DNA of 46,173 nucleotides from Polyangiales bacterium (GCA_040508235.1 JBEVNG010000374.1:1-46173); one strand, 5' to 3'; counted from the stretch's first letter, positions 1,246-14,512 are shown. Made by a program: numbers and translations. Notes: generated by a model not told the origin, from the letters alone.

Positions 1246-1259
1246 GGGCGGTATAGCTT

Positions 1260-1340
1260 GTCAGGTCTCTGCGCGGCAGCTGAAGGAGCAGGCCGCAAAG
1301 CGCTCGGCTTCACGCCGCGGTAAAGAGACCGCGGCCTGAC
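1260..1340 (+). terminator. Long imperfect hairpin 15 nt after the cytochrome stop (possible terminator or structured element)
   Basis: GTCAGGTCTCT GCGCGG ... CCGCGG taa AGAGACC gcggcc TGAC. Outer 4-bp and inner 7-bp complementary arms with a bulge. No U-tract. Confidence 0.25.
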
Positions 1341-1640: not shown

Positions 1641-3341
1641 TCAGCGGAGCGGCGGTCCCTCTGCGCCTAGCTGCGAGCGTGCTTGGCAGCGGGGGCCCTC
1701 GCAGAGCGCATCCAACTGCTCCTGGAGACGAGCGGCCTCGCGAGACTGGCCCGATGCGCGCGCTGCGGCGAGGGCGGCGAGCAGCACGTTGAGGCGCGCC
1801 GGGGCACTGACGAGCGTACGCTTCAGTTCCTTGAGCGCCGCGCGTGGCTCTCCCTGGAGCATGAGCAGCTCGCCTAGCATCTCACGCGCGCGGAGCACCG
1901 GGCCGGGAGTCACGGGGCCGTCGTCGGTCCCGTCCTCCAGGTCGGCGGCGCGCGCGAGCAGGCGGCGCGCCTCCGCATGCGAGGACTCCGCCTGCGCAAT
2001 CCAGGCGGCCACGGCGAGGCGCTGCACATCCACCAGCTCGCTCGCGGTGGCGCCCTCTTCGCTGTGCCGAGCCAGGCTGTCGCGAGCTTGCTCCAGTAGC
2101 GCCAGGTCGGCATGTGCCGCGGCCAGCTCGTGCCGTCGCGCGTGTGCATAGCCACGTGAAAAGTAGGTCACCGCCATCGCGCGCGGGAAGTCGCTCTCGC
2201 GCGCCTGCAGGCGCGCAGCAGCGGCGAGGTCGACGCGCTCCAGCGCGTAGCGTGCGGGCACGGCGTTGAGCGCGTACTCGCCCTTGCGACTGCGCGCGGG
2301 CTCGATGGCATCGATCGCGCGCAGCTCAGCCAACACCTGCGCGGCCTCGTCATCACGTCCGAGCTGCAGGTATGCGTAGGCCAGGTAATCCATGGCGTGC
2401 AGTTGCTCTTCCCAGGCCCCGCGCATGCCGGTGCGCTCGGCGTAGGCGCGCGCCGAAGTCTCCGACGCGATGTTGGAATCGATCGACTCGCGCCACAGGC
2501 CGCGCTGCGTGAAGGTGTGGGAGGGCATGTGCAACGCGTGGGGCGAGTCGGGAGCGATACGCGCGTAGGCCCTCGCCGCGGCGAGCGCGCGCTCGGCGAG
2601 CGCGGGGTAGTCGTAGGCGTGGATTACGTAGTGCGCGGCACCCGGGTGGTCGGGCTGACGTGCGAACACCTGCCCGGCGATCACTCCCGCGCGCTGCTGG
2701 GCGCGCAGCGCCTTGTCGGCTGGGTCCGCGTTGGCCATCAGCACCAGGCTGTACAGCGTGGCTGCCTCCCGATCGGACGGATCGGAACGGAAGAGCGCGG
2801 CCATCGCACGCTCGTACGCATCCACCCTGGCGGCATGCGCACGCCCCGGCTCGCCGTCGAAAAACGCGCCGATCGCCTCGATGTAACCGACCTCATGGCG
2901 CGTCTTTCCACCGAGCTCGCGCGCACGCGATACCGCGAGCGCCCCACGCTGGAGTTCGGCGGCACGCGGCGGCGTCCACAGCGGGTGGTACAGCGACATC
3001 GCGATGCCCCAGTGTGCCATCGCGCAGCCCGGGTCCAGCCGCGACACTTCCACGAAGCTTCGCGCCGCTTCGTCGTACCAAAATGAGTGCAGCATCGCGA
3101 CCGCGCGCACGAAGAGCGCCTGCGCAGGTGGCTCGCAGCGAATCGGGAACTGCACGCTGCCCAGCCCCGCCAGGCCGTCGTACTCCGCGCCCGTGCCGTG
3201 GTCCGTGCGCAACGCTTCGCAGTGCGCGTCAGCGCGTACGGGTGCGCTCGCGAGCGGCAACGACAGCAGCACCCATAGCCACCCCACCCGCTCGATCATC
3301 GTGTGCTCCATTCGCCCTCGTGCTTCGCTCACGCCGCTCAT
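1641..3341 (-). CDS. Secreted TPR-like repeat protein (hypothetical)
   Basis: Listed ORF 1641..3695. Its N-terminal 118 aa overlap the upstream gene and are Arg-rich. The ATG at 3341 forms an ATGA overlap with the upstream stop at 3338-3340. Alternative ATGs at 3311 and 3299 precede the signal peptide MIERVGWLWVLLSLPLASAPVRADA. The remainder is helical and repeat-like (HWGIAMSLYHPLW, AYAYLQLGRDDEAAQVL). Confidence 0.7.
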   Translation of the reverse strand: MSGVSEARGRMEHTMIERVGWLWVLLSLPLASAPVRADAHCEALRTDHGTGAEYDGLAGLGSVQFPIRCEPPAQALFVRAVAMLHSFWYDEAARSFVEVSRLDPGCAMAHWGIAMSLYHPLWTPPRAAELQRGALAVSRARELGGKTRHEVGYIEAIGAFFDGEPGRAHAARVDAYERAMAALFRSDPSDREAATLYSLVLMANADPADKALRAQQRAGVIAGQVFARQPDHPGAAHYVIHAYDYPALAERALAAARAYARIAPDSPHALHMPSHTFTQRGLWRESIDSNIASETSARAYAERTGMRGAWEEQLHAMDYLAYAYLQLGRDDEAAQVLAELRAIDAIEPARSRKGEYALNAVPARYALERVDLAAAARLQARESDFPRAMAVTYFSRGYAHARRHELAAAHADLALLEQARDSLARHSEEGATASELVDVQRLAVAAWIAQAESSHAEARRLLARAADLEDGTDDGPVTPGPVLRAREMLGELLMLQGEPRAALKELKRTLVSAPARLNVLLAALAAARASGQSREAARLQEQLDALCEGPRCQARSQLGAEGPPLR

Positions 3342-5698
3342 AGACACCCCAAGAACGCCTGCAGCGCGCGCTGCGCCGCGACGTCGAGCCCGAGGTACGC
3401 GTCTCGTGCGGCCGCGGCCTGGCCTCCGTGCTCGGCGATCGCCTCGTGCACCGTGGCGACGCGGCCGTCGTGCAGGAAGTGCGCGCGCGTGGACAGCTCC
3501 CACAGCGGCGGCGTACGCCACTCGTCGCCCGCCGCGCCACCTTGCTCGACGCCGTCTCGCAGGCCAGGGCCCATCGAATGCAGCAGCAGGTCCGAGTAGA
3601 GCGGCACGCGGCTGTTCCGGCCAGGCAAGCTCGGTGTGTGGCAGTCGGCGCAGCCAAGCGCCGCGAACCGCGTCGCGCCGGGTGACGCGAGGCATGCCTC
3701 AGAGGGGGCCGGAGGGTCGAGCGTGTTGAGGAAGCTGACCAGCGCCGTCAGCGGCAGTGCATCGATCTCGGTGTCGGCTCCGTTCGCGCCGCAGCCGCTG
3801 ACGAGGTCCTCCCGGAAGATCGGATTCGTGATGCCGAGCTCGTTTCGATAGGCCTCGCCCATGAAGTCAACCAGCGTGGCCATGTGCGCCTTCCAGCCGA
3901 ACTTGCCGAGCCGCCCATCGGGGAGGTACGCCGCTCGACCGCGTACGGCCGCAGGCTGCGCGTCGCGGTTGACCAGGATGTCGTACTCCCTGATGGCGTC
4001 GATCAGCCCACTGCCTCGCAGGCTCATGGAGCTGCGAGGCGAGAACACGTTGGCGCGCGCCGGAAGCCCGGGTCGGAGCCGGCAGCGCTCGCCGAGCTCC
4101 GCGACGCTGTGCGTGCGCTCGACGGGGCCTCCGTGCATCGCGAGCGGGTCGAAGCCGCCGCGTGGGCCGCGTCGGCCGAACAGGGTCACGAAGGTATTCG
4201 CCTCGATGCCCATCCCGCCGGGAGTCGGGGACAGGTGGCAGTCGATGCACGCACGCTCGTTGAAGAGCGGCCCGAGGCCGTGCGTCACGTCGAGCTGCTT
4301 CGAGAACAAGAACGAGCCCAGCTCGTGCATCGAGCTGGCACCTGCCTTTCGTGCATCGCGTAGCAGCGACGCCGTGGCCGCATGAGCCGCGAACGCCGGC
4401 GTGCTCAGCAGGATGCCGCCGTCCCGGGTGTTCGCCGTCACGTATAGCGTCTGACTGTTCGCGGACACGGCGATGCCACTCACGCGCATGCCCGGCGCCA
4501 CGGACGCGAGGGTCGTCTTCGCGACCATGCGTCCCTCGATAGTCATGCGAACGATCGAGTTATCGCCTCGGTTGAGCACGTAGAAGTCGGAGCCGCCACC
4601 GAGCATCGAGTTGCTGGCGAAGTTCGGGTGCGCGACCTCGCGGACCGCGGGTGCGAGATCGATCGGGAGGTCCAGCGCGGGGTGTGCGAGCACGTGCTTG
4701 CCGGTGACGGTGAACAGCGCGCCGTCGTCACCGATGTCGAGCACCACGATGCGGTTGGCGCGAGCGTCCGGCACGATCACGTTCATCGTAGGCGCCCAGT
4801 TCATCATGATCCCGAGCCGCGCGATCTCCCGCGCGCTCGTGGACTCCGCGCTCGCGATCGAGGGGACCCCGACCGGGCTCACCGTCGCGGCGGGCGACAG
4901 CGGGTCGACCCCCTTGGTGACGTGGACCTGCACCAGGCTGCCGTCCGACAGCACGGCGGCGAACACGGGCCGATTGGTCTCCTCCGGAGACTTGGTGATC
5001 AGCGTGGTACCGAGCGCTGGCGCGCCGAGGCCTTGGTGGACGGTGGGATCTCGGTTCGTCACCGAGCCCGCGAACACCGCGGTCGGACGCCCGTTCGGGT
5101 TGGTGACCGTGACGCTGCCTTCGCGACCGAGCTCCGCCGTGCCGTTGGCGAACCACGGCCGCCCACTCCCGTTATTCAGCGAGATGCTGGTCGGGAAGCT
5201 GACCGATGTCTGCTCCGACGTGGCGGGGGTGTTGACCGGGCCCTGGAAAGCCGGGCTCTGCGCGGCGAACAGCTGCACGCGTCCGCCGGCCGTGCTGGCC
5301 TGACCGTCCGCGCGCGCGAAATCGGGTGGTACCACGAGCGCAGGGCCCGCGACGTCGAGTGACAAGATCGCGCCCTCGCGAACTTGCGGGCGCGCGCGCG
5401 GCGCACCGAAGTTGCTGCTCGACGCGACCAGCACACGCTGGGGGTCGAACACCGCACCGGGCTGACAGTACGCTGCCCACGCCGGGTCGTCGTGCAGCGC
5501 GCCCCCCGGCAGGAAGCGACCCACTTCGCTTACCGCGCCGACGCCGCGCAGGCCCGTGGCCAGCAACCTCGGCGTCACCACGCGCGACCTGAGGTTCCGC
5601 TCGACCCGTGCATCCTGCGCACGTGCTCGCGCACCAGGTTGCAACCAAACGAGCGCGTACAGCAGAGCAACCGCTCCGACGTGACTGCTACGAACCAT
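3338..5698 (-). CDS. Fusion of an N-terminal beta-propeller-like region with a C-terminal di-haem DUF1111-type (thiol-oxidoreductase-like) cytochrome c module
   Basis: ATG at 5698 preceded by GGGAGGAAG. Signal-like N-terminus MVRSSHVGAVALLYALVWLQPGARARA. Two CxxCH motifs (CIDCH, CADCH). C-terminal FLHDGRVATVHEAIAEHGGQA is typical of DUF1111. Confidence 0.8.
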   Translation of the reverse strand: MVRSSHVGAVALLYALVWLQPGARARAQDARVERNLRSRVVTPRLLATGLRGVGAVSEVGRFLPGGALHDDPAWAAYCQPGAVFDPQRVLVASSSNFGAPRARPQVREGAILSLDVAGPALVVPPDFARADGQASTAGGRVQLFAAQSPAFQGPVNTPATSEQTSVSFPTSISLNNGSGRPWFANGTAELGREGSVTVTNPNGRPTAVFAGSVTNRDPTVHQGLGAPALGTTLITKSPEETNRPVFAAVLSDGSLVQVHVTKGVDPLSPAATVSPVGVPSIASAESTSAREIARLGIMMNWAPTMNVIVPDARANRIVVLDIGDDGALFTVTGKHVLAHPALDLPIDLAPAVREVAHPNFASNSMLGGGSDFYVLNRGDNSIVRMTIEGRMVAKTTLASVAPGMRVSGIAVSANSQTLYVTANTRDGGILLSTPAFAAHAATASLLRDARKAGASSMHELGSFLFSKQLDVTHGLGPLFNERACIDCHLSPTPGGMGIEANTFVTLFGRRGPRGGFDPLAMHGGPVERTHSVAELGERCRLRPGLPARANVFSPRSSMSLRGSGLIDAIREYDILVNRDAQPAAVRGRAAYLPDGRLGKFGWKAHMATLVDFMGEAYRNELGITNPIFREDLVSGCGANGADTEIDALPLTALVSFLNTLDPPAPSEACLASPGATRFAALGCADCHTPSLPGRNSRVPLYSDLLLHSMGPGLRDGVEQGGAAGDEWRTPPLWELSTRAHFLHDGRVATVHEAIAEHGGQAAAARDAYLGLDVAAQRALQAFLGCL

Positions 5699-5724
5699 CG
5701 CTTCCTCCCACGCAGATCACACCC

Positions 5725-6675
5725 TCAGATCTGAAACCACACATCCGGTCGCCGCGGCCCTGAACATGCCGCGCGCGGGCTGCGCGCCCGGATCTCACCC
5801 GCTCCGACACGGACAAAGGCCGGCACGTCCTCGAGCACCAGCGCACCTGCGCCGACGATCGCGCCGCGTCCCACCTGCGTCGTGCCCCCGAGCACGGTCG
5901 CGTTCGCGCACAGCGTGACGTGGTCGCCGATCGTCGGATGGCGGCGCGCGGCATCGTGCGGTGCCGCGGGAAGGGAGCGCGCGCCCAGCGTGACCCCTTG
6001 ATAGATCGTCACCTCGTCGCCCACCACGCTGGTCTCACCGATCACGACCCCGGTGCCGTGGTCGATGAAGACGCCGCGCCCAATGCGCGCTCCCGGGTGG
6101 ATGTCCACGCCGGTCTGCGCGTGCGCCCACTCGCTCATCATGCGCGGCAGCAGGGGTACGCCCAGCGCGTAGAGGCGATGGGCGACGCGGTGGATTGACA
6201 ACGCGAGCAGGCCCGGGAAGCAAAGGATGATCTCCGCCGCGCCGCGAGCCGATGGGTCGCGCGACTTGGCGGCGTGCAGATCGTCGAGCAACTGCGAGCG
6301 AAGCAAGGGCAGGCTGGAGATGAGCTCGGTCGCCAGCTCCGCGGCACGCGCGTGATCTGGCGACGAGAGCGCTCGCCAGATCTGTGCGGACAGCCCCGCG
6401 TGCAGTCTGGTCAGCTGCACCTCGACCTGCGCACGGCCCGGCGCCGCGGACGTGGGCCGGAAATAGCCGGGATAGAACAGCACGAGCAAGTCGCGCAGCA
6501 AGCGCCGTACACTCGCGCGCGAGGGTGCGGCGTGGCGCGCGTAGCGCTGCGCCTCGTGCGGCTCGGCGTACGCGGAAGCGAGCGCATGGGCGACGCTCTC
6601 CATAGCGCGCGACGTGGCATCGCGGACCGACGCCGTCGGCATGCGGTCGGTGGCCTCGGGGCACACGGTGGTCAC
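5725..6675 (-). CDS. cysE: Serine O-acetyltransferase
   Basis: Left-handed beta-helix hexapeptide region GARIGRGVFIDHGTGVVIGETSVVGDEVTIYQGVTLG plus an N-terminal helical SATase-like region. The GTG at 6675 overlaps the upstream stop (GTGA). Alternative ATG at 6642. Confidence 0.85.
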   Translation of the reverse strand: MTTVCPEATDRMPTASVRDATSRAMESVAHALASAYAEPHEAQRYARHAAPSRASVRRLLRDLLVLFYPGYFRPTSAAPGRAQVEVQLTRLHAGLSAQIWRALSSPDHARAAELATELISSLPLLRSQLLDDLHAAKSRDPSARGAAEIILCFPGLLALSIHRVAHRLYALGVPLLPRMMSEWAHAQTGVDIHPGARIGRGVFIDHGTGVVIGETSVVGDEVTIYQGVTLGARSLPAAPHDAARRHPTIGDHVTLCANATVLGGTTQVGRGAIVGAGALVLEDVPAFVRVGAGEIRARSPRAACSGPRRPDVWFQI

Positions 6676-7643
6676 ACGCAGCTCGCGACCTCGCCGAAGC
6701 CGAGCGCATCGCCCGACCCAGCGTGAGTGACCATTCCCGCATCGGGCAAGATCGCGACGATCGTGCTGCCTTTCGCCCCCGGGTCGCTGGCGATGCGCGT
6801 GGCTACGGCGATCGCGGCGCCGCCGGACAGACCGGTGACGATGCCCTCCTGCGCGGCCAGCTCACGCATCGTGCGCAGCGCCTCTTCGTCCGTGACCCGC
6901 TCCGCGCGGTCCAACAAGTTGAGGTCGAGCGTGCGAGGGATGAACCCACACCCGAGCCCCGCGATCCGATGCGCACCCGGCGTGAGCGCCAACCCGGCGA
7001 GCGTCTGCCCGATCACGGGGCTCGCGTCGGGCTCGACCGCAACCACCTGCAGCCCGGCGCTCTTGCCGCGGAGGAAGCGCGCCACGCCAGTCACGGTGCC
7101 GCCCGTGCCCACGCCACTTACGAAGTAGTCGAGCTGACCGCCCGTCGCCTCCCAGATCTCCGGGCCAGTGGTGGCCTCGTGCACACGCGGATTGGCGGGG
7201 TTGTCGAACTGCCTGGTGTAGTAGGCGCGCTCGTCTTGGCCGGCGATCACCTCGGCTTCTTCGATCGCGCCGCGCATGCCGAGGTGGAGCGGCGTGTTGA
7301 TGATGCGCGCACCGAGCGAGGCGAGCAGCACGCGACGGTCGAAGTCCATCAGCTGGGGGATGCACAGGGCGCAGCCATAACCGCGTGCCGCGGCGACCGT
7401 CGCGAGCGCAACCCCCATGTTGCCGCAAGTCGCCTCGAGCACGTACATACCGGGCCGGATCACGCCGCGTTGCTCGGCATCGGAGACCAAGCCGGCGGCG
7501 AGCCGACACTTCACGGAGCGTGCGGGGTTGGCGCCTTCCAACTTCACCAAGATGCGCGCGCCCGTCCAGCGCGAGCGCTGCCGCAAACAGACGAGCGGAG
7601 TGTTTCCTACGGCCAAGCTGATGTCTTCCGCTATTCGCGTCAT
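6672..7643 (-). CDS. Cysteine synthase-like PLP enzyme (O-acetylserine sulfhydrylase family) with an atypical substrate loop
   Basis: GNTPLV motif, PLP-lysine motif SVKCR, GVGTGGT glycine loop. ATG at 7643 preceded by GGGGAGGA. The Asn-loop reads TCGNMG instead of the canonical TSGNTG. Confidence 0.85.
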   Translation of the reverse strand: MTRIAEDISLAVGNTPLVCLRQRSRWTGARILVKLEGANPARSVKCRLAAGLVSDAEQRGVIRPGMYVLEATCGNMGVALATVAAARGYGCALCIPQLMDFDRRVLLASLGARIINTPLHLGMRGAIEEAEVIAGQDERAYYTRQFDNPANPRVHEATTGPEIWEATGGQLDYFVSGVGTGGTVTGVARFLRGKSAGLQVVAVEPDASPVIGQTLAGLALTPGAHRIAGLGCGFIPRTLDLNLLDRAERVTDEEALRTMRELAAQEGIVTGLSGGAAIAVATRIASDPGAKGSTIVAILPDAGMVTHAGSGDALGFGEVASCV

Positions 7644-7777
7644 CGGAGTCCTCCCCATTGTTGGTCGCGCGCGCACGTCTCCACCCGCGCGCCGCACTCG
7701 CGTCGCAACCCATTCACCCAGCTCGAATCGTACGGCTCCAAGATCGGCGCCGCAGGTCACGGCACCTCGTGCGCGGC

Positions 7778-8686
7778 TCAGCTACGCGAGGCGCTAGCGA
7801 ACCAGCGCGCGCACTCCGGGCCGAGTTCGCGCTCCGCGCGGGCCTCGTAGCGCTCGACGTCGACCCGACTCAACACCTCGCGCCAGCGTCCGTTGACACC
7901 CTTGTTGACGAACGTGCGCGAGCCGTCGTCCCAGAATGCGCCCTCCATCGGCAGGCTCTTGGTCGCGTTCGCCTTCATGTACTCGAAGGAACAGTGGTGC
8001 ACGATCTCCTGCCAACGCTGCTGGTCGACCGGCACATCGAGGAAGCGCGCGACCTTACGGATCTGCCCTGACAGGTCGCGCTTGAGCTCTTCGTAGTGGA
8101 GCATCAGCACGTTGGGCAGCTGCCGCGCGGACCACCACGAGCGTGCGTGCGCCCAGAACGGCCAGAACGGATAGCCATCGCGCTCGAGCCACTCGATAAA
8201 GTACTCGCGCACCGAGGCCGTAGGCTTCTCGAGCGCGTGACCGACGCGGCCGGGCGTGTCGTTCATCGTCTCGTACCAGAGCGCATTCGCGTTGGCGTGG
8301 TGGTTGTGCATGCTCCACACCACGTCGCGCCCGTCGCGCGCGACGTGGATGTACTTGGCCTTGGGCACGAACACCAACCCGTCGACCGGCAGGTGCGTCT
8401 TGAGGAAGCGCCGATGCGTCTGCGCCTCGACGTGCCGCAGCTTCACCTCGGGCGGGGGAACACGCAGCTCGAGGCACGGTGACATGCGCGCCACCTCCAG
8501 CCCCTCGGCACCGTTGAACAGCAGTTGGGAGACGATCTGCTGCATCCAGGTGGTCCCCGACTTCGCGTAGGTCGCGATGACGATGTCATCGTCGCGGTAC
8601 CTGAAGTCGTTCCAGATGCGAGAGTCCGCATGATGGTTCTGGACTTCACGACGCTTGCGCGGCCAGTCGATGGTGGCGTTCTGCAT
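7778..8686 (-). CDS. PAPS-dependent sulfotransferase (aryl/cytosolic sulfotransferase fold)
   Basis: 5'-PSB loop YAKSGTTWMQQIV and 3'-PB-like ARDGRDVVWSMHNHH. ATG at 8686 preceded by AAGGAGA. Confidence 0.85.
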   Translation of the reverse strand: MQNATIDWPRKRREVQNHHADSRIWNDFRYRDDDIVIATYAKSGTTWMQQIVSQLLFNGAEGLEVARMSPCLELRVPPPEVKLRHVEAQTHRRFLKTHLPVDGLVFVPKAKYIHVARDGRDVVWSMHNHHANANALWYETMNDTPGRVGHALEKPTASVREYFIEWLERDGYPFWPFWAHARSWWSARQLPNVLMLHYEELKRDLSGQIRKVARFLDVPVDQQRWQEIVHHCSFEYMKANATKSLPMEGAFWDDGSRTFVNKGVNGRWREVLSRVDVERYEARAERELGPECARWFASASRS

Positions 8687-8723
8687 TGTTGGTCTCCTTG
8701 GAAGTGCTGGCGCCGCTGCGCGG

Positions 8724-9818
8724 CTAATGCATCGATACGGGCGCGCTCGCGTGACCGGACGGCTCTGGCCAGCGACGATCGACACCGAGGTGCTCCATGA
8801 ACATCACGATTCGCTGCGCGACCGGGACTGCCTGCTCCTCGACCGCGAAGTGCCCTGCGTCGAGGAGGTGCAGTTCGGCCTCGGGCACGTCGCGCAGGTA
8901 AGCCTGGGCCCCCGCGGCGATGAACGCAGGGTCCTCTCGTCCCCACACGATCAACGTGGGCGGGCGCCGCTCGCGCAGGAACGCTTGCCACCGTGGGTAG
9001 GCATCGATGTTGTTCTGGTAGTCCTGGAACAGCGCCACCTGAATGCGTCGGTCCTCATTCGAGGGCAGGCGCGCAATGTCGTGTGTCCAGCTGTCCGGGC
9101 ACATGCGCGTGGCCTTCTCTCCCGGCACGTCGCGCAGGTACTGCTTCTCGCGGATCGCGACGTCGCTCACGAAGCTGGAGAGCGTTTGCAGGTTCTCGGC
9201 CGAGCGATCGTCGCGTGCGCGCTTGAAGAACTCCTGTCGCGGTGGTGTCAGGCCGTCGAGGTACGCATTGGCGTTCTGGATGACCAAGCCGCGCAGGCGC
9301 TCGGGGTGCGCCATCGCCACGCGAAAACCGACCGGCCCCCCGAAGTCTTGCATGTAGAGCACGTACGACTTCAGGCCCAGCGCATCGACGAAGCCCGTGA
9401 TGTGCTCGGCGAGCAGGTCGAACGTGTACCGCACCTCGTCCGGACTCGGGCGTTCGCTGAAGCCCGAGCCGAGGTAGTCTGGCGCAAGCACGTGGTAGCG
9501 CCCAGACAAGAGCGGAATCAGCTCGCGATAGGTATGCGACGACGACGGATATCCGTGCAGCAACAGCAGGGTGGGCCGCGTGGGATCTCCCGCCTCGCGA
9601 TAGAAGATGCGCCGCCCCGTCACCTCGACGGTTCGGTAGTACGTCTTCGCCGGCCAGGTCGGAGCGGGGATCCCGTCGGCGTCGCCATTCGCATGCCGCT
9701 CGGCTGCGAGTGCGTGCGCGTCGACCGCTTGCCGGACCTGGTGCGCGCACCCCGCGAGCGCGAGGATCGTGCCTAGTGCAGCGAACGAGAGCGTGCGGGA
9801 GAAGGTGTGTTGCGACAT
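8724..9818 (-). CDS. Exported alpha/beta hydrolase lipoprotein, Asp-nucleophile type (epoxide hydrolase / haloalkane dehalogenase-like)
   Basis: ATG at 9818 preceded by AGGAG. Lipoprotein signal MSQHTFSRTLSFAALGTILALAGC. LLLLHGYPSSSHTY oxyanion region and nucleophile elbow MQDFGGPVG. Confidence 0.8.
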   Translation of the reverse strand: MSQHTFSRTLSFAALGTILALAGCAHQVRQAVDAHALAAERHANGDADGIPAPTWPAKTYYRTVEVTGRRIFYREAGDPTRPTLLLLHGYPSSSHTYRELIPLLSGRYHVLAPDYLGSGFSERPSPDEVRYTFDLLAEHITGFVDALGLKSYVLYMQDFGGPVGFRVAMAHPERLRGLVIQNANAYLDGLTPPRQEFFKRARDDRSAENLQTLSSFVSDVAIREKQYLRDVPGEKATRMCPDSWTHDIARLPSNEDRRIQVALFQDYQNNIDAYPRWQAFLRERRPPTLIVWGREDPAFIAAGAQAYLRDVPEAELHLLDAGHFAVEEQAVPVAQRIVMFMEHLGVDRRWPEPSGHASAPVSMH

Positions 9819-9877
9819 GCGAGCTCCTGTTGATCGGATCGTTGCGTGAGCCATGCAGACCACGCTGCTATCCCTCG

Positions 9878-10615
9878 TCACGGAAAGAGCGCTGCGAATC
9901 CCGTTGCACCGAGCAACGCCAGCGAGATGACGCGAAAGTGGAGGTGTCCTCCAGCGCGGAAGAGCACGCTCCCGAGATAGCTGCCCACGAACATACACGG
10001 CGCGATGATCAGCACCCACGTTAGCGACGCCGATGTCAGCAGCCCCGCCGGAGCGAGCACGAGCGTTACCTGCGCAACCTGAAGCAACGCGAAGTACGTC
10101 ACGAAGCTCGCACGACTCGTCTCGGCCGAGACGTTGGTCGACAAGAAGTACAACACCACGCGTGGGCCACCGAGGCTGACCGCGCCGTTGAGCACGCCAC
10201 TCACAAAACCAGCGACCACGCGCCAGGGCGGAGCCAGGGGCGTCGACGCGGGCCTGATCAGGGCGAGCCCGAGCGCGGTCCCGATCACCACGAGCGCCGC
10301 GACACGGCGTAGTGCGTCCGACGACAGGTGGACCAACAGCCAGGTTCCCAGCGGCAGCGCCAACACTGCCCCCAGCGCCATTCCCAGCACCGCGCGCAGG
10401 TCGGCTTCACGCCGCAGCCCGATCGCCATCGGCACGCTAGAGACGAACGTCGTCACCACCACCGCGACCACCGCTTCGCGCGCAGGCACGACCAGCGAGA
10501 GCATGGGCACCATGACGAGCGCGGCGCCGAACCCGCTGATGCCGCGCGCGAAGCCACCAACGAGCCCGGTGGCGACGGCAGCAGTGATCTGCGTGAGGAA
10601 CGAGGGAGTGAGCAT
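9878..10615 (-). CDS. TauE/SafE (TSUP) family membrane permease
   Basis: 245-aa polytopic hydrophobic protein. Family-like N-terminus GLVGGFARGISGFGAALVMVPMLSLVV. ATG at 10615. Confidence 0.8.
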   Translation of the reverse strand: MLTPSFLTQITAAVATGLVGGFARGISGFGAALVMVPMLSLVVPAREAVVAVVVTTFVSSVPMAIGLRREADLRAVLGMALGAVLALPLGTWLLVHLSSDALRRVAALVVIGTALGLALIRPASTPLAPPWRVVAGFVSGVLNGAVSLGGPRVVLYFLSTNVSAETSRASFVTYFALLQVAQVTLVLAPAGLLTSASLTWVLIIAPCMFVGSYLGSVLFRAGGHLHFRVISLALLGATGFAALFP

Positions 10616-10653
10616 GATCTTCCCGCTTGGACGGCCCCGGCGCCGGTCTTGGT

Positions 10654-11538
10654 TCAGCGCCCCAGCGCAGTGATCACGGCTGACAGGTCGTCGCGCCCTC
10701 GCCCACGACGCAGCGCGACGTCGTACTGGCGCTCGATCGCCTCCGTGACCGGCACGTGCTGGTCTGCACGTCGTGCGGCATCAAGGACCAGCCGAACGTC
10801 CTTGTGCGCCAGGTCCAGGGGAAAGCAGGGCGTGAACTCCTCGCTGAGCATCATGCGCGCCTTGCCCTCTGCATAAGGCGCCATGAACACGCCTCCATCG
10901 ACCAGGTGCAAGAACGAGCGCGGCTCGACGCCGAGCGCGCGCGCCAGCGTGATCGTCTCGGAGAGCAGCGCGACCATGCCGGTGCTCCACTGGTTGGCGA
11001 CGAGCTTGAGCTTGCTCGCCGCGCCGGCGCGGCCCACCCACACCGTGCGCTCTCCGACGGCCGCGAACACGACCTTGCAGCGCTCGGCCAAAGGCGGCTC
11101 GCCAGCCGCTACGATGGTAAGCGTGCCCGCCTCCGCGGGCTGGCGCGTACCGAGCACGGGCGCGTCGACGAAGTCGATGCCGGCAGCCGCCGCAAGCGCG
11201 GACAGCTCGCGTATCGACTCGGCACCCACCGTGCTCATCTGGATCCAAAGCGCCCCTGGTTCCATCGCCACGAGCGCTTCGGCCATCACCTGCTTCACCA
11301 CGCCGCCGTCCGAGAGCATCGTGATCACGACGTCCGCGCCGCGCACGGCGTCGGCCGGGCAGCTTGCGCACCGCGCGCCCTGAGCTTGCAACGCCCGCAT
11401 CGACTCGGCCGAGCGGTTCCACACCGACACCGGCAGCCCAGCGGCGAGTAGGTTGCGGGCCATCGCACCGCCCATGATGCCCGTGCCGAGCAGCGCGATC
11501 TGGTCGCCTGCCAGCGTGCTCCCGGGAGCGCGCGTCAT
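10654..11538 (-). CDS. NAD(P)-dependent beta-hydroxyacid dehydrogenase (HIBADH / 6PGDH-NAD-binding family)
   Basis: Rossmann motif IALLGTGIMGGAMARNL and catalytic-Lys region GAASKLKLVANQ. ATG at 11538 forms an ATGA overlap with the upstream stop. The upstream 120 aa of the listed ORF are Arg-rich and overlap the VOC gene. Confidence 0.85.
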   Translation of the reverse strand: MTRAPGSTLAGDQIALLGTGIMGGAMARNLLAAGLPVSVWNRSAESMRALQAQGARCASCPADAVRGADVVITMLSDGGVVKQVMAEALVAMEPGALWIQMSTVGAESIRELSALAAAAGIDFVDAPVLGTRQPAEAGTLTIVAAGEPPLAERCKVVFAAVGERTVWVGRAGAASKLKLVANQWSTGMVALLSETITLARALGVEPRSFLHLVDGGVFMAPYAEGKARMMLSEEFTPCFPLDLAHKDVRLVLDAARRADQHVPVTEAIERQYDVALRRGRGRDDLSAVITALGR

Positions 11539-11981
11539 TCGCTCGTCACCGAAGGCTGAAAGCCACCCAGAAACTGCTCGGCGTGGTCCTTGAAGGCCTT
11601 GAACTCGAGCGCGTTCCCGAACGGATCGAGCAGGAACATGGTGAAGTGCTCGCCTTGTTTGCCCACCAGCCTCGCATGAGGCTCCTCCACGAAGCCGATC
11701 GCGTTCTGCTTGAGCCGGTCGGCCAGCTGTTGCCACGACGTGTAGTCGAGGTTGAGGCCGAAGTGCGGCACCGGCACCGCGTGCCCGTCGAAGCAAGAGT
11801 CGGGTGGCGGTGGAGGCGGTGGCGCGATGTGCGCGACGATCTGGTGACCGAAGAAGTCGAAGTCCACGTAGACGTCGGAGCAGCGCCCCTCCGGGCACCC
11901 CAGCACGCCGCCGTAAAAGCGACGCGCCTGATCGAGGTCGGTGACGGGAAACGCGAGATGGAACTGTGAGATCTTGGACAT
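11535..11981 (-). CDS. VOC (glyoxalase / bleomycin-resistance / dioxygenase) family protein
   Basis: MSKISQFHLAFPVTDLDQARRFYGGVLGC is a typical VOC N-terminal beta-alpha-beta module. ATG at 11981. Confidence 0.75.
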   Translation of the reverse strand: MSKISQFHLAFPVTDLDQARRFYGGVLGCPEGRCSDVYVDFDFFGHQIVAHIAPPPPPPPDSCFDGHAVPVPHFGLNLDYTSWQQLADRLKQNAIGFVEEPHARLVGKQGEHFTMFLLDPFGNALEFKAFKDHAEQFLGGFQPSVTSE

Positions 11982-12009
11982 GTTGGTCTTCCGCGCGTAG
12001 GCAGGCAGC

Positions 12010-12771
12010 TCAGGCACGCGCCTGCGTGGGCTCGGCGCGCTCGGTCGTCGGCGCGCTGCGCAGGTCGGCAAAATGCTCGGCGTAGATGTTCTCCCAGAAC
12101 TTGTCGAAGATCGCCTTGGCGTCGCGGTACCCTTTGATCAGCTCGTCGAGCTGCTCGGGGCTGCTGGTGACGAGCGTCTCGACCGATGCCTTGAGCTTCT
12201 CGCGATGCGCGATGTCCACGTCACCCGTGTGGATGTCCCAGAACGTCCAGGACACACGGTCCGAGAGCGCGCGGATCGCAGGGTTGTCGACGAAGTGCGC
12301 GTGCATCGCCGCCAGGTACACCTGGCAGAGGCACTCGCCGCCCATGCCTCGCAGGCCAACCGCGTAGGGGGCGGTGCCCGCGACGACGCGGGTCTGCAGG
12401 TCCAGCAGCAAGCGCATGTTCTCCTGGTTGGCGTCGAGCGCGAGCTCCTCGGCGGGGATGCCGATGCTGAGCAAGAAGTTGTCGTACAGTCTCTCGTGCG
12501 CCGCCTCGTTGTCGCCGTTGCCGAGCTCGTCGTTCAGGAAGTCGGCCAGCAGGCTGCGCAGCTCGCCGAACGGCAGCTTTGCCACCAGCAACGCAAGGTC
12601 GGTGATGTAGAAGATGGTGAAGTAGCGATACTGGACAAAGATCTTGCGCAGCACGGGCAGCGGCACGGTCGCGAGCCGCTTCAGTCGCTCGTCGGCGAGG
12701 TAAGCCGTTTGCGTGCGCGCAGCATCGGCCAACAACCAGAACTCTCGCAGCGAGTCGTCGTGATTCGTCAT
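12010..12771 (-). CDS. Haem-oxygenase-like di-iron (iron-containing redox enzyme family) protein
   Basis: ATG at 12771 preceded by a strong SD GGAGGTGAAGGA. All-helical protein with E-x-x-H type ligand motifs (DELGNGDNEAAHERLYDNF; DIHTGDVDIAHREK). Confidence 0.7.
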   Translation of the reverse strand: MTNHDDSLREFWLLADAARTQTAYLADERLKRLATVPLPVLRKIFVQYRYFTIFYITDLALLVAKLPFGELRSLLADFLNDELGNGDNEAAHERLYDNFLLSIGIPAEELALDANQENMRLLLDLQTRVVAGTAPYAVGLRGMGGECLCQVYLAAMHAHFVDNPAIRALSDRVSWTFWDIHTGDVDIAHREKLKASVETLVTSSPEQLDELIKGYRDAKAIFDKFWENIYAEHFADLRSAPTTERAEPTQARA

Positions 12772-12837
12772 TCCTTCACCTCCGAAGTTGCGCACATCGT
12801 CGTGAGCTCGTGCAGTTGCTTTATGCGCGAACGTTCG

Positions 12838-12883
12838 GCGCAGCCACTACGAGATCTGATAGGTGCGCGCACCGGCGCCTGAG
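12838..12883. promoter_or_regulatory. Two perfect palindromes in the divergent HDO/luxI intergenic region (candidate operators)
   Basis: CGAACGTTCG at 12838-12847 and GGTGCGCGCACC at 12872-12883, inside the 145-bp spacer 12772-12916. No canonical CTG-N10-CAG lux box seen. Confidence 0.25.
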
Positions 12884-12916
12884 ACGCACTGTGTCGCCCG
12901 AAAGGATGGCAAGACG

Positions 12917-13576
12917 ATGGCAGTCTTATCGATCGGTCGACGCAGTGATTTGGGACCCGAGCTCTACGACGCTGTCTGTAGATATCGTCACGAGGTCTTT
13001 GTACGAAGACTTGGCTGGAGCCTCGCACCCGGGCGCCCTGACCACGAAGAGGATGAGTTCGACACCGAAGACACTGTGTACGTGGTCGCCCGCGCACTCG
13101 ATGGTCGCGTTTGCGGGCTCGCGCGCTTGCTGCCGACGACGCGACCGTACTTGCTCGGCAAGGTGTTCCCTCAACTGGTGCGAGGGCCGGCGCCCAGCGA
13201 GCCCACGCAGTGGGAACTGTCGCGCTTCGCGGCCGACGCCGGGTCGGGGCTCGCACGCAGGCTCTTCGCGCGTGCGGTGGACGAAGCGAGCGCGCGCGGA
13301 GCCACGCACTTGGTCGGGGTGTTGTCGACGAGGGTCGAGCGCAGCTGCCATGGCTTCGGTGCGCAGTTGGTGAGGCTCGGCGACGAGGTCAACCACGATG
13401 GCGAGACTATCGTCGCGTGCGCGGTCAACACGCGAGCCGCATTCGTCAGCTCCGGTGCCGCGTGCTATCCGATCATGTTTGGCGTGCCGAACCAGCGCGG
13501 TGTGCCTCGGGACTGGGTCCCGGCGCGTTCGACGCAGTCCGCGCCGACGCGTGCAGCGAGCCTCCGCGTCTGCTGA
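12917..13576 (+). CDS. luxI: Acyl-homoserine-lactone synthase (LuxI family)
   Basis: ATG at 12917 preceded by AAAGGATGG. Family-conserved blocks YRHEVFVRRLGW, EEDEFD, GLARLLPTTRPYLLGKVF and WELSRFAAD. Confidence 0.9.
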   Translation: MAVLSIGRRSDLGPELYDAVCRYRHEVFVRRLGWSLAPGRPDHEEDEFDTEDTVYVVARALDGRVCGLARLLPTTRPYLLGKVFPQLVRGPAPSEPTQWELSRFAADAGSGLARRLFARAVDEASARGATHLVGVLSTRVERSCHGFGAQLVRLGDEVNHDGETIVACAVNTRAAFVSSGAACYPIMFGVPNQRGVPRDWVPARSTQSAPTRAASLRVC

Positions 13577-14321: not shown

Positions 14322-14327
14322 GACAGT

Positions 14328-14354
14328 ACCCAAACCGTGATGGCTAGTTTGGGT
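14328..14354 (-). promoter_or_regulatory. Stem-loop in the luxR 5' leader, immediately upstream of the start codon
   Basis: Perfect 8-bp arms ACCCAAAC (14328-14335) and GTTTGGGT (14347-14354) with an 11-nt loop. The 3' arm on the mRNA ends 6 nt before the ATG, where an SD would sit. Confidence 0.3.
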
Positions 14355-14512
14355 GGCGCCGTCAAGGCAGAACCAGCTTCGATTCGGTATGAGTGCGAGC
14401 TCCGCATGCGGGGCCGCAAGCGGCATTGCACCTCCGGGGCCGAGCCGAGATGTTGACCTTACAACGGGATGTTTCCAAGGAGCTACGCGGGACTCATCGC
14501 CAACTGCTAGCT

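What the first reader, a model, noticed from the sequence alone, without database searches (positions are those of the whole stretch)
1641..12771. Ten-gene co-directional enzyme/transport array head-to-head with luxI: candidate QS-controlled sulfur-metabolite pathway
All ten minus-strand genes are separated by short gaps or share coupling overlaps: ATGA at 11535-11538 and 3338-3341, GTGA at 6672-6675. The first gene starts 145 bp from luxI, transcribed divergently. The combination is a haem-oxygenase-like di-iron enzyme, a VOC protein, a beta-hydroxyacid dehydrogenase, a TauE/SafE permease, an exported Asp-nucleophile hydrolase, a PAPS sulfotransferase, a CysK-like enzyme with an altered substrate loop, and CysE. 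I do not recognise this combination as any described cluster. HDO-family enzymes (the family of SznF, UndA, BesC and CADD) carry out unusual oxidations in natural-product pathways. CysE/CysK-homologue pairs are used to make beta-substituted alanines, for example DcsE/DcsD in D-cycloserine biosynthesis. The sulfur theme (sulfotransferase, sulfite/sulfonate-type permease, OAS chemistry) suggests a sulfated or sulfonated small molecule. That this is a single pathway is an inference. The distal genes (DUF1111 protein, TPR protein) may be unrelated.
Basis: inference. Interest (0 to 1): 0.7.

Follow-up and report, generated by a model that had tools for sequence, protein, structure and literature searches.

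The report
Quorum-sensing-linked myxobacterial sulfation operon
A soil myxobacterium carries a ten-gene operon built around an uncharacterised di-iron oxidase and a sulfotransferase; relatives have a seven-gene version, but only here it sits next to a complete AHL quorum-sensing gene pair, which one 2026 paper says has not been documented in myxobacteria.

Summary
Ten minus-strand genes lie at 1641-12771 with the stated ATGA/ATGA/GTGA overlaps. luxI starts 145 bp from the first gene, and every family assignment is confirmed.

Three relatives' contigs (L008, L094, and L098 until it is cut) keep HDO-VOC-dehydrogenase-hydrolase-sulfotransferase-DHOR-TPR in the same order at 56-76% identity. So the "distal" DUF1111 and TPR genes are core. 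TauE and the CysK-like/CysE pair are additions in this genome.

Those relatives have an APS kinase and a divergent ECF sigma/anti-sigma pair where this contig has luxI/luxR. None of the 95 other HDO loci compared carries luxI. The 145-bp gap has no lux-box-like dyad above chance, so quorum-sensing control is plausible but rests on adjacency alone.

The HDO-VOC pair is a widespread uncharacterised cassette. Its partners are a class-III aminotransferase in about 40 loci and a glyoxylate/succinic-semialdehyde-reductase-like enzyme here, which suggests a carbonyl intermediate.

The CysK-like protein is unusual: TSGNTG is TCGNMG and HKIQG is HRIAG, unique among 120 homologues.

Best reading: an oxidase, reductase, PAPS-sulfation and export pathway for a small sulfated metabolite, rewired to LuxIR. 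The product is unknown, and a stress or detoxification role is a serious rival.

The parts
13581..14426 (-). luxR: AHL-receptor-type regulator, convergent with luxI (4 bp between the stop codons). The real start may be Met36.
   Evidence: Autoind_bind 108.7 bits and GerE 72.3 bits. The AHL-pocket residues W104, Y108, D117, P118 and W132 are present.
12917..13576 (+). luxI: acyl-homoserine-lactone synthase homologue, divergent from the operon.
   Evidence: PF00765 57.3 bits, above the 24-bit cut-off. R24, F28, W34, E44, D46, D49, R70, E100 and R103 are present. The source names it AHL synthase. The best named relatives are Burkholderiales at 43-47%.
12772..12916 (.). 145-bp divergent intergenic region that must hold both the luxI promoter and the operon promoter.
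   Evidence: Sequence read. There is no sigma-70 consensus. The best 16-20-bp dyads are reached by 45-82% of shuffles. The motif conserved upstream in the ECF-type relatives is absent.
12010..12771 (-). Gene 1: haem-oxygenase-like di-metal oxidase (HDO) of an uncharacterised, tight subfamily.
   Evidence: PF14518 48 bits. E82, H92, E146, H181, D186 and H189 are invariant in 15 homologues. The AF2 model has pLDDT 88.7. Foldseek gives CADD, UndA, BesC and FlcD at TM 0.65-0.71 and 14-17% identity. Only 106 of 1.84 billion representatives match at E<=1e-3.
11535..11981 (-). Gene 2: VOC/glyoxalase-fold metalloprotein, the obligate partner of the HDO.
   Evidence: PF00903. It lies directly downstream on the same strand in 62 of 86 HDO loci, or 67 of 94. 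P0047 is an HDO-VOC fusion. H8, H73 and E126 are invariant.
10654..11538 (-). Gene 3: NAD(P)H beta-hydroxyacid dehydrogenase / aldehyde reductase. Its start overlaps the VOC stop (ATGA).
   Evidence: NAD_binding_2 142 bits and NAD_binding_11 73 bits. The nearest structures are the 3pdu and 3pef dehydrogenases (Geobacter succinic-semialdehyde reductases, as I recall), human GLYR1 and Arabidopsis GLYR1. No NCBIfam equivalog cut-off is reached. Relatives are 57-62% identical in L003, L008 and L094.
9878..10615 (-). Gene 4: TauE/SafE (TSUP) anion permease, an addition specific to this window.
   Evidence: PF01925 86.5 bits. It is absent from L008 and L094. The Haliangium cluster has a different TauE, 28% identical at E 0.001.
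8724..9818 (-). Gene 5: exported lipoprotein, an alpha/beta hydrolase of the haloalkane-dehalogenase type with an Asp nucleophile.
   Evidence: Abhydrolase_1 109 bits. The haloalkane-dehalogenase models score 116 bits, below the 241-bit cut-off. The alignment to HLD-like structures puts QDFGG against HDWGG and HGYP against HGNP. The lipobox LAGC is seen. Relatives are 76% identical in L008 and L094.
7778..8686 (-). Gene 6: PAPS-dependent sulfotransferase of the cytosolic SULT type.
   Evidence: Sulfotransfer_1 184 bits. The best PDB matches are mammalian SULT1B1, 1C2 and 1A1 and oestrogen sulfotransferase. The motifs YAKSGTTW, KTHLP and RDGRDVVWS can be read in the translation. Relatives are 64-70% identical in L003, L008 and L094.
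6672..7643 (-). Gene 7: diverged CysK paralogue, specific to this window.
   Evidence: TIGR01139 scores 336 bits, below the 350.95 cut-off. It aligns end to end with enterobacterial CysK. It reads TCGNMG and HRIAG where all 119 best homologues have TSGNTG and HKIQG. The best non-self hit is 59% identical, a Steroidobacteraceae CysK.
5725..6675 (-). Gene 8: serine O-acetyltransferase homologue. Its GTG start overlaps the CysK-like stop.
   Evidence: The EpsC-type SAT model scores 170.4 bits, above the 150 cut-off. The cysE model scores 181, below 210.65. The C-terminus is ...WFQI. SAT homologues also lie near the HDO in L033, L083 and one JGI contig.
3338..5698 (-). Gene 9: exported 786-aa protein with a C-terminal di-haem DHOR/DUF1111 domain and about 550 N-terminal residues that match nothing.
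   Evidence: PF06537 106.9 bits on residues 555-784. Two CxxCH motifs (CIDCH, CADCH) are in the translation. The N-terminus has no Pfam or PDB hit. Relatives are 57-58% identical in L008 and L094 and it is present in the JGI contig.
1641..3341 (-). Gene 10: exported TPR-like protein of unknown function. Its ATG overlaps the DHOR stop (ATGA).
   Evidence: Weak TPR hits only and no PDB relative. It is 56-57% identical in L008 and L094 and 40% identical next to HDO-VOC in Piscinibacter L057.

Best explanation
The locus is a version of a conserved Myxococcota operon that has been rewired to a LuxI/LuxR pair. The core is HDO, VOC, an aldehyde-reductase-type dehydrogenase, an exported Asp-nucleophile hydrolase, a PAPS sulfotransferase, an exported di-haem DHOR protein and an exported TPR protein.

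Proposed mechanism (the gene families and synteny are shown; the steps below are inferred):
1. The di-iron HDO uses O2 to oxidise a small amino acid or carboxylic acid, and the VOC metalloprotein processes its product. The two always travel together and are fused in one protein.
2. The result is a carbonyl compound (an aldehyde or omega-oxo acid). Other lineages pair the cassette with a class-III aminotransferase. This lineage pairs it with a glyoxylate/succinic-semialdehyde-reductase-like enzyme that would reduce the carbonyl to an alcohol.
3. The SULT-type enzyme sulfates the hydroxyl group from PAPS. Relatives encode the APS kinase next door.
4. In this genome a TauE-family permease exports the anion.
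5. In the periplasm the lipoprotein hydrolase acts on the exported compound, possibly by Asp attack on the carbon bearing the sulfate leaving group. The di-haem/TPR pair also acts there.
6. The diverged CysK-like/CysE pair is a lineage-specific add-on. It would supply O-acetylserine chemistry, either a beta-substituted alanine precursor or extra cysteine.

Transcription starts in the 145-bp region shared with luxI. It is probably controlled by the adjacent AHL-type LuxR. This control replaces the ECF sigma/anti-sigma control seen in relatives.
For: Families.

Operon anatomy: overlaps and short gaps and no intergenic terminators.

Synteny:
- L008 has HDO-VOC-bHADH-ABH-ST-DHOR-TPR at 56-76% identity.
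- L094 has the same order, and L098 has the same start before the contig ends.
- A JGI contig has HDO-VOC-bHADH-DHOR-TPR-Hexapep.
- Haliangium has bHADH-HDO-VOC-ST-TauE.

PAPS supply: an APS kinase lies directly upstream of the HDO in L008, L094, L098 and L092, and CysD/CysN/APS kinase lie beside it in L093.

HDO-VOC coupling: 62 of 86 loci, or 67 of 94, plus the fusion P0047.

Carbonyl inference: a class-III aminotransferase neighbours the pair in 40 loci, and the bHADH is nearest to SSA/glyoxylate reductases.

Export signals on ABH, DHOR and TPR.

Intact LuxI and LuxR residues.

Regulatory swap: ECF sigma/anti-sigma pairs in the relatives, and their conserved upstream motif is missing here.

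Shared history of the block: TPR..luxR has lower GC3 than the rest of the contig, p=1.5e-4.
Against: - No substrate or product is known for any enzyme here. The HDO has only 14-17% identity to characterised HDOs, and the VOC's nearest structure has no assigned function.
- No lux-box-like dyad is found, and no other HDO locus has luxI.
- The CysK-like/CysE pair and TauE are not in the syntenic relatives, so they may be functionally separate. The 134-nt gap before the CysK-like gene could hold its own promoter.
- The neighbours in relatives (ECF sigma with a weak NrsF-like anti-sigma, ChrA, AhpC, GST, KatG) fit a stress or detoxification role as well as a biosynthetic one.
- The hydrolase is exported while the sulfotransferase is cytoplasmic, so a direct ST-to-ABH hand-off needs an exporter that L008 and L094 do not encode in the cluster.
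Confidence: 0.5

Rival explanations
1. Stress or detoxification operon rather than a biosynthetic pathway. The genes would form a phase I-III-like system: oxidation (HDO); glyoxalase- or FosX-like and epoxide-hydrolase/dehalogenase-like steps (VOC, ABH); aldehyde reduction (bHADH); sulfo-conjugation (SULT-type ST); and export (TauE). Periplasmic di-haem peroxidase-like proteins would deal with peroxide. The system would act on reactive aldehydes, xenobiotics or prey toxins. In relatives it is switched on by an ECF sigma factor, and here by AHL. That AHL could be the cell's own or that of prey.
For: - The divergent ECF sigma has a 271-aa partner with a weak NrsF match, and ChrA lies downstream, in L008 and L094.
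- The JGI contig has AhpC and GST.
- KatG lies next to the HDO in Variovorax.
- A CCP/MauG-like di-haem protein follows HDO-VOC in L095.
- The bHADH is closest to glyoxylate/SSA reductases, which are known as aldehyde-detoxifying enzymes (my knowledge).
- The sulfotransferase is closest to animal xenobiotic SULTs.
- There is a precedent: the HDO DtpC protects Acinetobacter against oxidative stress (PMC13232832).
Against: - DtpC's similarity to this subfamily was not tested.
- A dedicated APS kinase and tight HDO-VOC coupling with varied tailoring partners (aminotransferase, AMP-ligase + KASIII-like, methyltransferase + SAT) look more like a building-block cassette of specialised metabolism.
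- The closest luxI relatives sit beside secondary-metabolite genes.
Confidence: 0.3
2. Composite array. The ten genes are co-directional, but they are several unrelated units: the HDO-VOC(-bHADH) cassette, ABH-ST, an ordinary cysteine-synthesis pair cysK-cysE, and a DHOR-TPR periplasmic pair. luxI/luxR would be an independently inserted cassette that regulates only itself or distant genes.
For: - HDO-VOC occurs alone or with quite different partners in most loci.
- cysK/cysE and TauE are missing from the syntenic relatives.
- A 134-nt gap precedes the CysK-like gene.
- The luxI adjacency is unique and there is no lux box.
- The closest luxI/luxR cassette lies next to an integrase.
Against: - The seven-gene order is conserved across at least three diverged contigs.
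- The TPR protein also travels with HDO-VOC in a betaproteobacterium.
- Two overlaps and gaps of 26-59 nt, with no intergenic terminators.
- The CysK-like protein is not ordinary.
- SAT homologues recur near this HDO family in three other contexts.
Confidence: 0.15
3. Sulfonate pathway. CysE plus the CysK-like enzyme would make cysteate or another beta-substituted alanine from O-acetylserine and sulfite. The HDO would convert it oxidatively to a sulfo-aldehyde, the dehydrogenase would reduce it (as sulfolactaldehyde or sulfoacetaldehyde reductases do), and TauE would export the sulfonate.
For: - The best NCBIfam hit of the dehydrogenase is sulfolactaldehyde 3-reductase (166 bits), and the CysK-like protein hits cysteate synthase CapA (181 bits).
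- TauE family.
- The CysK-like protein has an altered carboxylate- and nucleophile-side loop.
- The CysK homologue DcsD, which uses another nucleophile, is among the PDB hits (3x43).
Against: - Both scores are far below the equivalog cut-offs (348 and 600). Tartronate-semialdehyde and 3-hydroxyisobutyrate models score about the same.
- The nearest structures are SSA/glyoxylate reductases, ahead of YihU.
- The core cluster in relatives lacks CysK/CysE and TauE yet keeps the ST and an APS kinase. That points to an O-sulfate ester rather than a C-sulfonate.
Confidence: 0.1

Closest known systems
LuxI/LuxR-linked specialised-metabolite operons of Proteobacteria (for example Burkholderia quorum-sensing-controlled clusters; from my knowledge)
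   Same: An AHL synthase and an AHL-type LuxR sit directly beside a co-directional enzyme/transporter operon, and luxI is divergent from the first gene. The closest luxI relatives also sit with luxR next to P450 and type II PKS genes.
   Different: The host is a Polyangiales (Myxococcota) MAG. A 2026 paper states that no complete LuxR/LuxI system has been documented in myxobacteria (PMC13293253). The known AgpI has no cognate LuxR in its genome, and VitI's LuxR homologue is not clustered with it (PMC7862692). No lux box is found, and the adjacency is not conserved in any relative.
Haem-oxygenase-like di-metal oxidases (CADD, UndA, BesC, FlcD/FlcE, SznF, RohS, HrmI, AetD)
   Same: The predicted fold is the same and the six-residue E/H/E/H/D/H ligand set is complete. 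The protein is encoded as a tailoring enzyme in a small-molecule operon.
   Different: Identity is only 14-17%. The BesC equivalog model scores 22 bits against a cut-off of 500. The protein belongs to a compact separate clade. This clade is almost always paired with a VOC protein. I found no description of that pairing in the literature library.
Cytosolic SULT-type sulfotransferases, and sulfation-as-activation systems (the CurM ST-TE domain, retinol dehydratase; from my knowledge, with retinol dehydratase among the PDB hits)
   Same: It has the Sulfotransfer_1 domain with the PAPS-binding and catalytic-His motifs. It is adjacent to a hydrolase that could use sulfate as a leaving group.
   Different: It is a free-standing bacterial enzyme. 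The hydrolase partner is an exported lipoprotein, not a fused thioesterase. No substrate is known.
CysE/CysK-homologue pairs that make beta-substituted alanines (DcsE/DcsD in D-cycloserine, SbnA)
   Same: A serine-acetyltransferase-type gene is translationally coupled to a CysK homologue inside a non-cysteine operon. The CysK homologue has changed substrate-loop residues.
   Different: It is much closer to true CysK (E 2e-95, alignment) than to DcsD (6e-57) or the SbnA model (178 bits). The pair is missing from the syntenic relatives. Its activity is untested.
ECF sigma (SigF/NrsF-type) stress regulons with chromate transporters (from my knowledge of Caulobacter SigF)
   Same: Relatives of this operon lie beside an ECF sigma, a 271-aa partner with a weak NrsF match, and ChrA.
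   Different: This window has none of these. The NrsF match is below the Pfam cut-off (19 bits against 27).

Membership tests
HDO superfamily (haem-oxygenase-like di-metal oxidases) | Seven-helix haem-oxygenase-like fold | tested here: met
   AF2 model at pLDDT 88.7. Foldseek matches CADD, UndA, BesC, FlcD and Npun_F6505 at TM 0.65-0.71 with probability 1.0. PF14518 scores 48 bits, above the 28.9 cut-off.
HDO superfamily (haem-oxygenase-like di-metal oxidases) | Three His plus three carboxylate metal ligands on the core helices | tested here: met
   E82, H92, E146, H181, D186 and H189 are invariant in 15 homologues. Their assignment as ligands is by analogy, not by structural superposition.
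BesC / CADD / UndA specific families | Score above the curated equivalog cut-off | tested here: not met
   BesC scores 22 bits against 500, and the CADD subfamily 16.6 against 200. The PDB profile search gives BesC at E 1.5e-6 only.
LuxI-type AHL synthase | Autoind_synth domain with the conserved N-terminal catalytic residues | tested here: met
   PF00765 scores 57.3 bits, above 24. R24, F28, W34, E44, D46, D49, R70, E100 and R103 are present.
LuxI-type AHL synthase | Produces an acyl-homoserine lactone | not testable with these tools
   Needs expression and LC-MS or a biosensor assay.
LuxR-type AHL receptor / quorum-sensing circuit | Autoinducer-binding domain with the conserved pocket residues, plus a GerE HTH domain | tested here: met
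   PF03472 108.7 bits and PF00196 72.3 bits. W104, Y108, D117, P118 and W132 are present.
LuxR-type AHL receptor / quorum-sensing circuit | lux-box-like inverted repeat in the target promoter | tested here: not met
   The best 16/18/20-bp dyads have 6/8, 6/9 and 7/10 pairs and are reached by 51%, 82% and 45% of shuffles. There is no CTG-N8-12-CAG. The only exact palindrome is the 12-bp GGTGCGCGCACC at 12862-12873.
Quorum-sensing-controlled gene cluster | luxI/luxR adjacency conserved with the cluster in relatives | tested here: not met
   None of the 95 other HDO loci compared (L097 and L098 were fetched later) has a LuxI or LuxR hit. Syntenic relatives have an ECF sigma/anti-sigma pair instead.
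O-acetylserine sulfhydrylase A (CysK) | Equivalog score, and the substrate loop TSGNT plus Gln142 | tested here: not met
   TIGR01139 scores 336 bits, below 350.95. The protein reads TCGNMG and HRIAG where 119 of 119 best homologues read TSGNTG and HKIQG. The PLP lysine (SVKCR) and the GTGGT loop are retained.
Serine O-acetyltransferase (CysE) | Curated model score, and a C-terminal Ile for docking CysK | tested here: inconclusive
   The EpsC-type SAT model scores 170.4, above 150. TIGR01172 scores 181.4, below 210.65. The C-terminus is ...WFQI. Complex formation was not tested.
PAPS-dependent sulfotransferase (Sulfotransfer_1) | The domain plus the 5'-PSB loop, the 3'-PB motif and the catalytic His | tested here: met
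   PF00685 scores 184.4 bits. YAKSGTTW, RDGRDVVWS and KTHLP can be read in the translation. Calling these the PAPS-binding motifs rests on my knowledge of SULT structures.
Haloalkane dehalogenase | Equivalog score and the halide-stabilising Trp/Asn next to the Asp nucleophile | tested here: not met
   The best model scores 116 bits, below 241. The protein has D-F instead of D-W and HGYP instead of HGNP. The Asp nucleophile and the C-terminal GH are retained.
Sulfolactaldehyde reductase / tartronate-semialdehyde reductase / HIBADH equivalogs | Score above the curated cut-off | tested here: not met
   Scores are 166/348, 161/397, 156/341 and 147/292. The nearest structures are 3pdu, 2uyy and 3doj, the SSA/glyoxylate reductase group.
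TauE/SafE (TSUP) permease | Pfam domain over the full length | tested here: met
   PF01925 scores 86.5 bits, above 32.6, over residues 14-240 of 245. The substrate is not testable here.
DHOR/DUF1111 di-haem protein | DHOR domain with two CxxCH motifs | tested here: met
   PF06537 scores 106.9 bits but covers only profile positions 215-497. CIDCH and CADCH are in the translation. The 550 N-terminal residues match nothing.

The most novel reading that the evidence does not exclude
A member of the Myxococcota runs a complete, self-contained AHL quorum-sensing circuit. One 2026 paper says none had been documented in this group. The circuit would directly switch on a new pathway. In that pathway a previously uncharacterised HDO-VOC enzyme pair performs a new oxidative transformation. 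The product is reduced, O-sulfated, exported by a TauE permease and then unmasked or transformed in the periplasm by a dehalogenase-like hydrolase that uses sulfate as a leaving group. This would be a sulfate-masked secreted effector produced at high cell density, for example during group predation.
Probability: 0.2. Interest if true: 0.85.

Novelty: new variant of a known kind. Interest (0 to 1): 0.62.

Why it matters
There are three separable points.

1. **A complete luxI/luxR pair in a myxobacterial contig.** The pair is clustered and looks intact, and it lies in a contig labelled Polyangiales with myxobacterial-type neighbours. The recent literature says such a pair has not been documented in this group. 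It also comes with an obvious candidate target operon, so AHL signalling in a predatory, social lineage becomes directly testable.

2. **The HDO-VOC cassette.** It is conserved in 62 of the 86 HDO loci first compared (Myxococcota, Lysobacteraceae, Burkholderiales and others). It is as distant from every characterised HDO as those are from each other, and nothing in the searched literature describes it. HDOs have repeatedly yielded new reaction types. The modular partners mapped here (aminotransferase, reductase + sulfotransferase, AMP-ligase + KASIII-like, methyltransferase + SAT) narrow the search to a carbonyl-forming step.

3. **A regulatory swap.** The same seven-gene operon has an ECF sigma/anti-sigma pair in relatives and LuxIR here. 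This is a clean natural example of regulatory module exchange.

Tried and rejected
- **Metagenome scan** with the window HDO: only six short contigs, and no new synteny except APS kinase followed by the HDO in L092.
- **Lux-box search:** inverted-repeat finder, custom palindrome scan, dyad score against shuffles, and CTG-N-CAG. Nothing rose above chance.
- **Comparison with the luxI upstream region of the closest luxR-luxI cassette (L096):** I saw no shared motif by eye.
- **Sigma-70 promoter scan:** no hits.
- **Rfam scan** of 1-16000 for riboswitches or leaders, for example in the 134-nt gap before the CysK-like gene: only a sub-threshold snoRNA chance hit.
- **Literature searches** for HDO + glyoxalase/VOC, HDO + sulfotransferase, and PF14518: nothing describes this cassette or cluster.
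- **Sequence searches of PDB and Pfam** for the TPR protein and the DHOR N-terminal 550 residues: nothing.
- **NCBIfam on the partner aminotransferase:** only an unnamed subfamily, PRK06062. The idea that it is a taurine:pyruvate aminotransferase, and with it a sulfoacetaldehyde intermediate, got no support.
- **Ordinary housekeeping cysK/cysE:** rejected for the CysK-like protein on its unique substitutions and its 59% best hit.
- **Haloalkane dehalogenase** for the hydrolase: rejected on score and on the missing halide-binding residues.
- **A homology link to the Acinetobacter HDO DtpC:** could not be tested because I had no sequence in hand.

Full report
**Source and anatomy**

The window is the whole 46,173-bp contig of a MAG that NCBI labels 'Polyangiales bacterium' (P0001 is 100% identical and its longest contig is 46173 bp). 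GC content is about 69%.

Ten minus-strand ORFs occupy 1641-12771. On the minus strand, 11535-11538 and 3338-3341 read ATGA and 6672-6675 reads GTGA. The other junctions are gaps of 26-59 nt, except 134 nt between the sulfotransferase and the CysK-like gene. None of the nine terminator-like sites found falls in an intergenic gap, and the count is not above the shuffled expectation.

The HDO start codon is at 12769-12771 and is preceded by GGAGGTGAAGGA. The luxI ATG is at 12917, so the divergent gap is 145 bp. luxR (13581-14426) is convergent with luxI, with 4 bp between the stops.

**Gene families**

- Haem_oxygenas_2
- Glyoxalase/VOC
- NAD_binding_2 + NAD_binding_11
- TauE
- Abhydrolase_1 (best models are haloalkane dehalogenases, but below cut-off)
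- Sulfotransfer_1
- a CysK-like PALP enzyme (336 bits against a cut-off of 350.95)
- a serine acetyltransferase (passes the EpsC-type SAT model)
- DHOR/DUF1111 (C-terminal 230 residues only, two CxxCH motifs)
- a weak TPR protein
- Autoind_synth, and Autoind_bind + GerE

The hydrolase has a lipoprotein signal (...LAGC). The DHOR and TPR proteins have signal-peptide-like N-termini. So three products are probably exported, one is a membrane permease and six are probably cytoplasmic.

**Is it one unit? Synteny**

I collected 98 related loci with the HDO as probe, from one genome scan, one metagenome scan and look-ups of individual homologues. I then ran tblastn with all window proteins against them.

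Three diverged contigs keep the window's order:
- L008 (MAG Myxococcales GL139) has HDO-VOC-bHADH-ABH-ST-DHOR-TPR at 68, 67, 57, 76, 64, 58 and 56% identity.
- L094 has the same seven genes.
- L098 has the first three before the contig ends.

A JGI contig has HDO-VOC-bHADH-DHOR-TPR followed by a 319-aa hexapeptide acyltransferase. Haliangium sp. has bHADH-HDO-VOC-ST-TauE. The TPR protein also follows HDO-VOC in a Piscinibacter MAG at 40% identity.

TauE and the CysK-like/CysE pair are absent from the syntenic relatives and are additions in this genome.

Two points keep the additions plausible as pathway members:
- The Haliangium cluster has recruited a different TauE-family permease, 28% identical at E 0.001.
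- Serine acetyltransferase homologues lie near this HDO family in Agrobacterium and Roseiarcus, together with a methyltransferase and EamA exporters, and perhaps in the JGI contig.

**Sulfation theme**

An APS kinase sits immediately upstream of the HDO in L008, L094, L098 and L092. CysD/CysN and an APS kinase flank the HDO in L093.

The sulfotransferase carries the PAPS-binding and catalytic motifs and is most similar to animal cytosolic SULTs.

This supports an O-sulfation step as integral to the cluster. It gives no specific support to sulfonate (C-S) chemistry. The sulfolactaldehyde-reductase and cysteate-synthase models are far below their cut-offs. The dehydrogenase's nearest structures are 3pdu, 3pef, human GLYR1 and Arabidopsis GLYR1 (the glyoxylate/succinic-semialdehyde reductase group), ahead of YihU.

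**The HDO-VOC cassette**

The VOC gene lies directly downstream of the HDO on the same strand in 62 of the first 86 loci, with a median gap of 48 nt. These loci span Myxococcota, Lysobacteraceae, Burkholderiales and others. One protein (P0047, 408 aa) fuses the two domains.

The HDO keeps a complete E/H/E/H/D/H ligand set. It folds as an HDO (pLDDT 88.7; TM 0.65-0.71 to CADD, UndA, BesC and FlcD). Its identity to any characterised member is only 14-17%.

The clade is compact. Only 106 of 1.84 billion 50%-identity representatives match at E<=1e-3.

In about 40 loci the next gene is a class-III aminotransferase of an unnamed NCBIfam subfamily. In Piscinibacter and Vitiosangium it is an AMP-ligase, followed in Piscinibacter by a KASIII-like gene. 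In alphaproteobacteria it is a methyltransferase plus SAT plus EamA.

An aminotransferase in one lineage and an aldehyde-reductase-type enzyme in another is what one expects around a shared carbonyl intermediate. That is an inference, and the substrate remains unknown.

I found no paper describing this pairing or this cluster.

**The CysK-like/CysE pair**

The CysK-like protein aligns end to end with enterobacterial CysK and keeps the PLP lysine and the glycine loop. It reads TCGNMG and HRIAG where all 119 best homologues read TSGNTG and HKIQG.

Its best non-self match is only 59% identical, a gammaproteobacterial CysK. It is therefore an isolated, diverged paralogue with changes at positions that bind the amino-acid carboxylate in CysK structures (the structural role is from my knowledge).

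The SAT ends in Ile, as CysK-docking SATs do. Whether the pair feeds the pathway or simply adds cysteine capacity is open.

**Quorum-sensing link**

LuxI and LuxR both look intact. LuxI's named relatives are Burkholderiales at 43-47% identity. The two closest metagenomic relatives I looked up (53-54%) lie in luxR-luxI cassettes. One is beside a P450 and a large gene, with an integrase on the other side. The other is beside type II PKS genes.

None of the other HDO loci carries luxI or luxR. The syntenic relatives have a divergent ECF sigma factor, a 271-aa partner (weak NrsF match) and an APS kinase at the equivalent position. They share a conserved upstream motif that is absent from the window.

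The 145-bp gap has no dyad symmetry beyond chance and no CTG-N-CAG box.

The twelve genes from TPR to luxR have lower GC3 (mean 0.85) than 17 other ORFs of the contig (0.91; Mann-Whitney p=1.5e-4). That is compatible with a shared history for the block or with a different expression level.

Control by LuxR is thus a reasonable inference from promoter sharing, but nothing more.

[quoted passage not shown] The 2021 description of AgpI found no cognate LuxR in its genome, and VitI's LuxR homologue is unclustered (PMC7862692). If the contig is correctly assigned, this pair is notable in itself.

**Mechanism, rivals and verdict**

I favour (0.5) an oxidise-reduce-sulfate-export pathway for a small metabolite, with periplasmic follow-up steps, rewired from ECF sigma to LuxIR control.

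The main rival (0.3) is a stress or detoxification system. It is suggested by the ECF sigma/NrsF-like pair, ChrA, AhpC, GST, KatG and the di-haem peroxidase-like neighbours in relatives. The aldehyde-reductase and xenobiotic-SULT affinities point the same way. So does the precedent of the HDO DtpC in oxidative-stress protection (PMC13232832).

A composite of unrelated units (0.15) is weakened by the conserved seven-gene order.

The finding is real. It is partly reinterpreted and of moderate to high interest: a new variant of the known 'quorum-sensing cassette next to a metabolic operon' theme, built on an uncharacterised enzyme pair.

Noticed in passing
window 17257-19233 (-) and 19292-22780 (-): A squalene/oxidosqualene cyclase lies next to a 1163-aa fusion protein. 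The fusion carries squalene epoxidase, a short cyclase-like stretch and squalene synthase domains. Together they look like a sterol-type biosynthesis pair.
   Followed up: no
window 12917-14426: Clustered, convergent luxI/luxR with all the usual conserved residues, in a contig labelled Polyangiales. The literature held here says no complete LuxR/LuxI system is documented in myxobacteria. The taxonomic assignment rests on the record label and on the neighbours' affinities only.
   Followed up: partly
window 1641-14426 against the rest of the contig: The twelve-gene block TPR..luxR has lower third-position GC (mean 0.85; luxI is lowest at 0.77) than 17 other ORFs (mean 0.91). Mann-Whitney p=1.5e-4. 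This could mean a separately acquired island.
   Followed up: partly
L008 3701-4277, L094 1832-2113, L098 3672-4224: A conserved intergenic motif, CACCGTTACGAATG ... CGTATTGACGGGCTGAAGACGGCTCT, lies between the ECF sigma gene and the APS kinase/HDO operon in three relatives. It is a candidate ECF-type (GTAAC) promoter or operator and is absent from the window.
   Followed up: partly
window 1-1245 (+): A RoxA-like di-haem cytochrome c gene is cut by the contig end and is convergent with the TPR gene. It is a second di-haem protein beside the cluster.
   Followed up: no
window 22901-29344 (-): A multihaem cytochrome, a BNR-repeat protein, an HmuY-like protein and a TonB-dependent receptor lie together. 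This is probably a haem/iron uptake unit.
   Followed up: no
window 11802-11822 (VOC residues 54-60): A run of seven prolines sits in a variable loop of the VOC protein. Six homologues lack it.
   Followed up: yes
L033 10001-13440 and L083 76-3748: In Agrobacterium sp. and Roseiarcus sp. the same HDO family lacks the VOC partner. It is followed instead by a SAM methyltransferase, a serine acetyltransferase, EamA-type exporters and, in L083, a Fur-family regulator. This is a different module around the same oxidase.
   Followed up: partly
L096 269-5191 and the Logan contig dT2f1q_r: The closest luxI relatives (53-54%) are in luxR-luxI cassettes. One lies between a phage-type integrase and a P450 plus a large gene. 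The other lies upstream of a type II PKS set (KS-alpha/KS-beta/ACP/cyclase).
   Followed up: no
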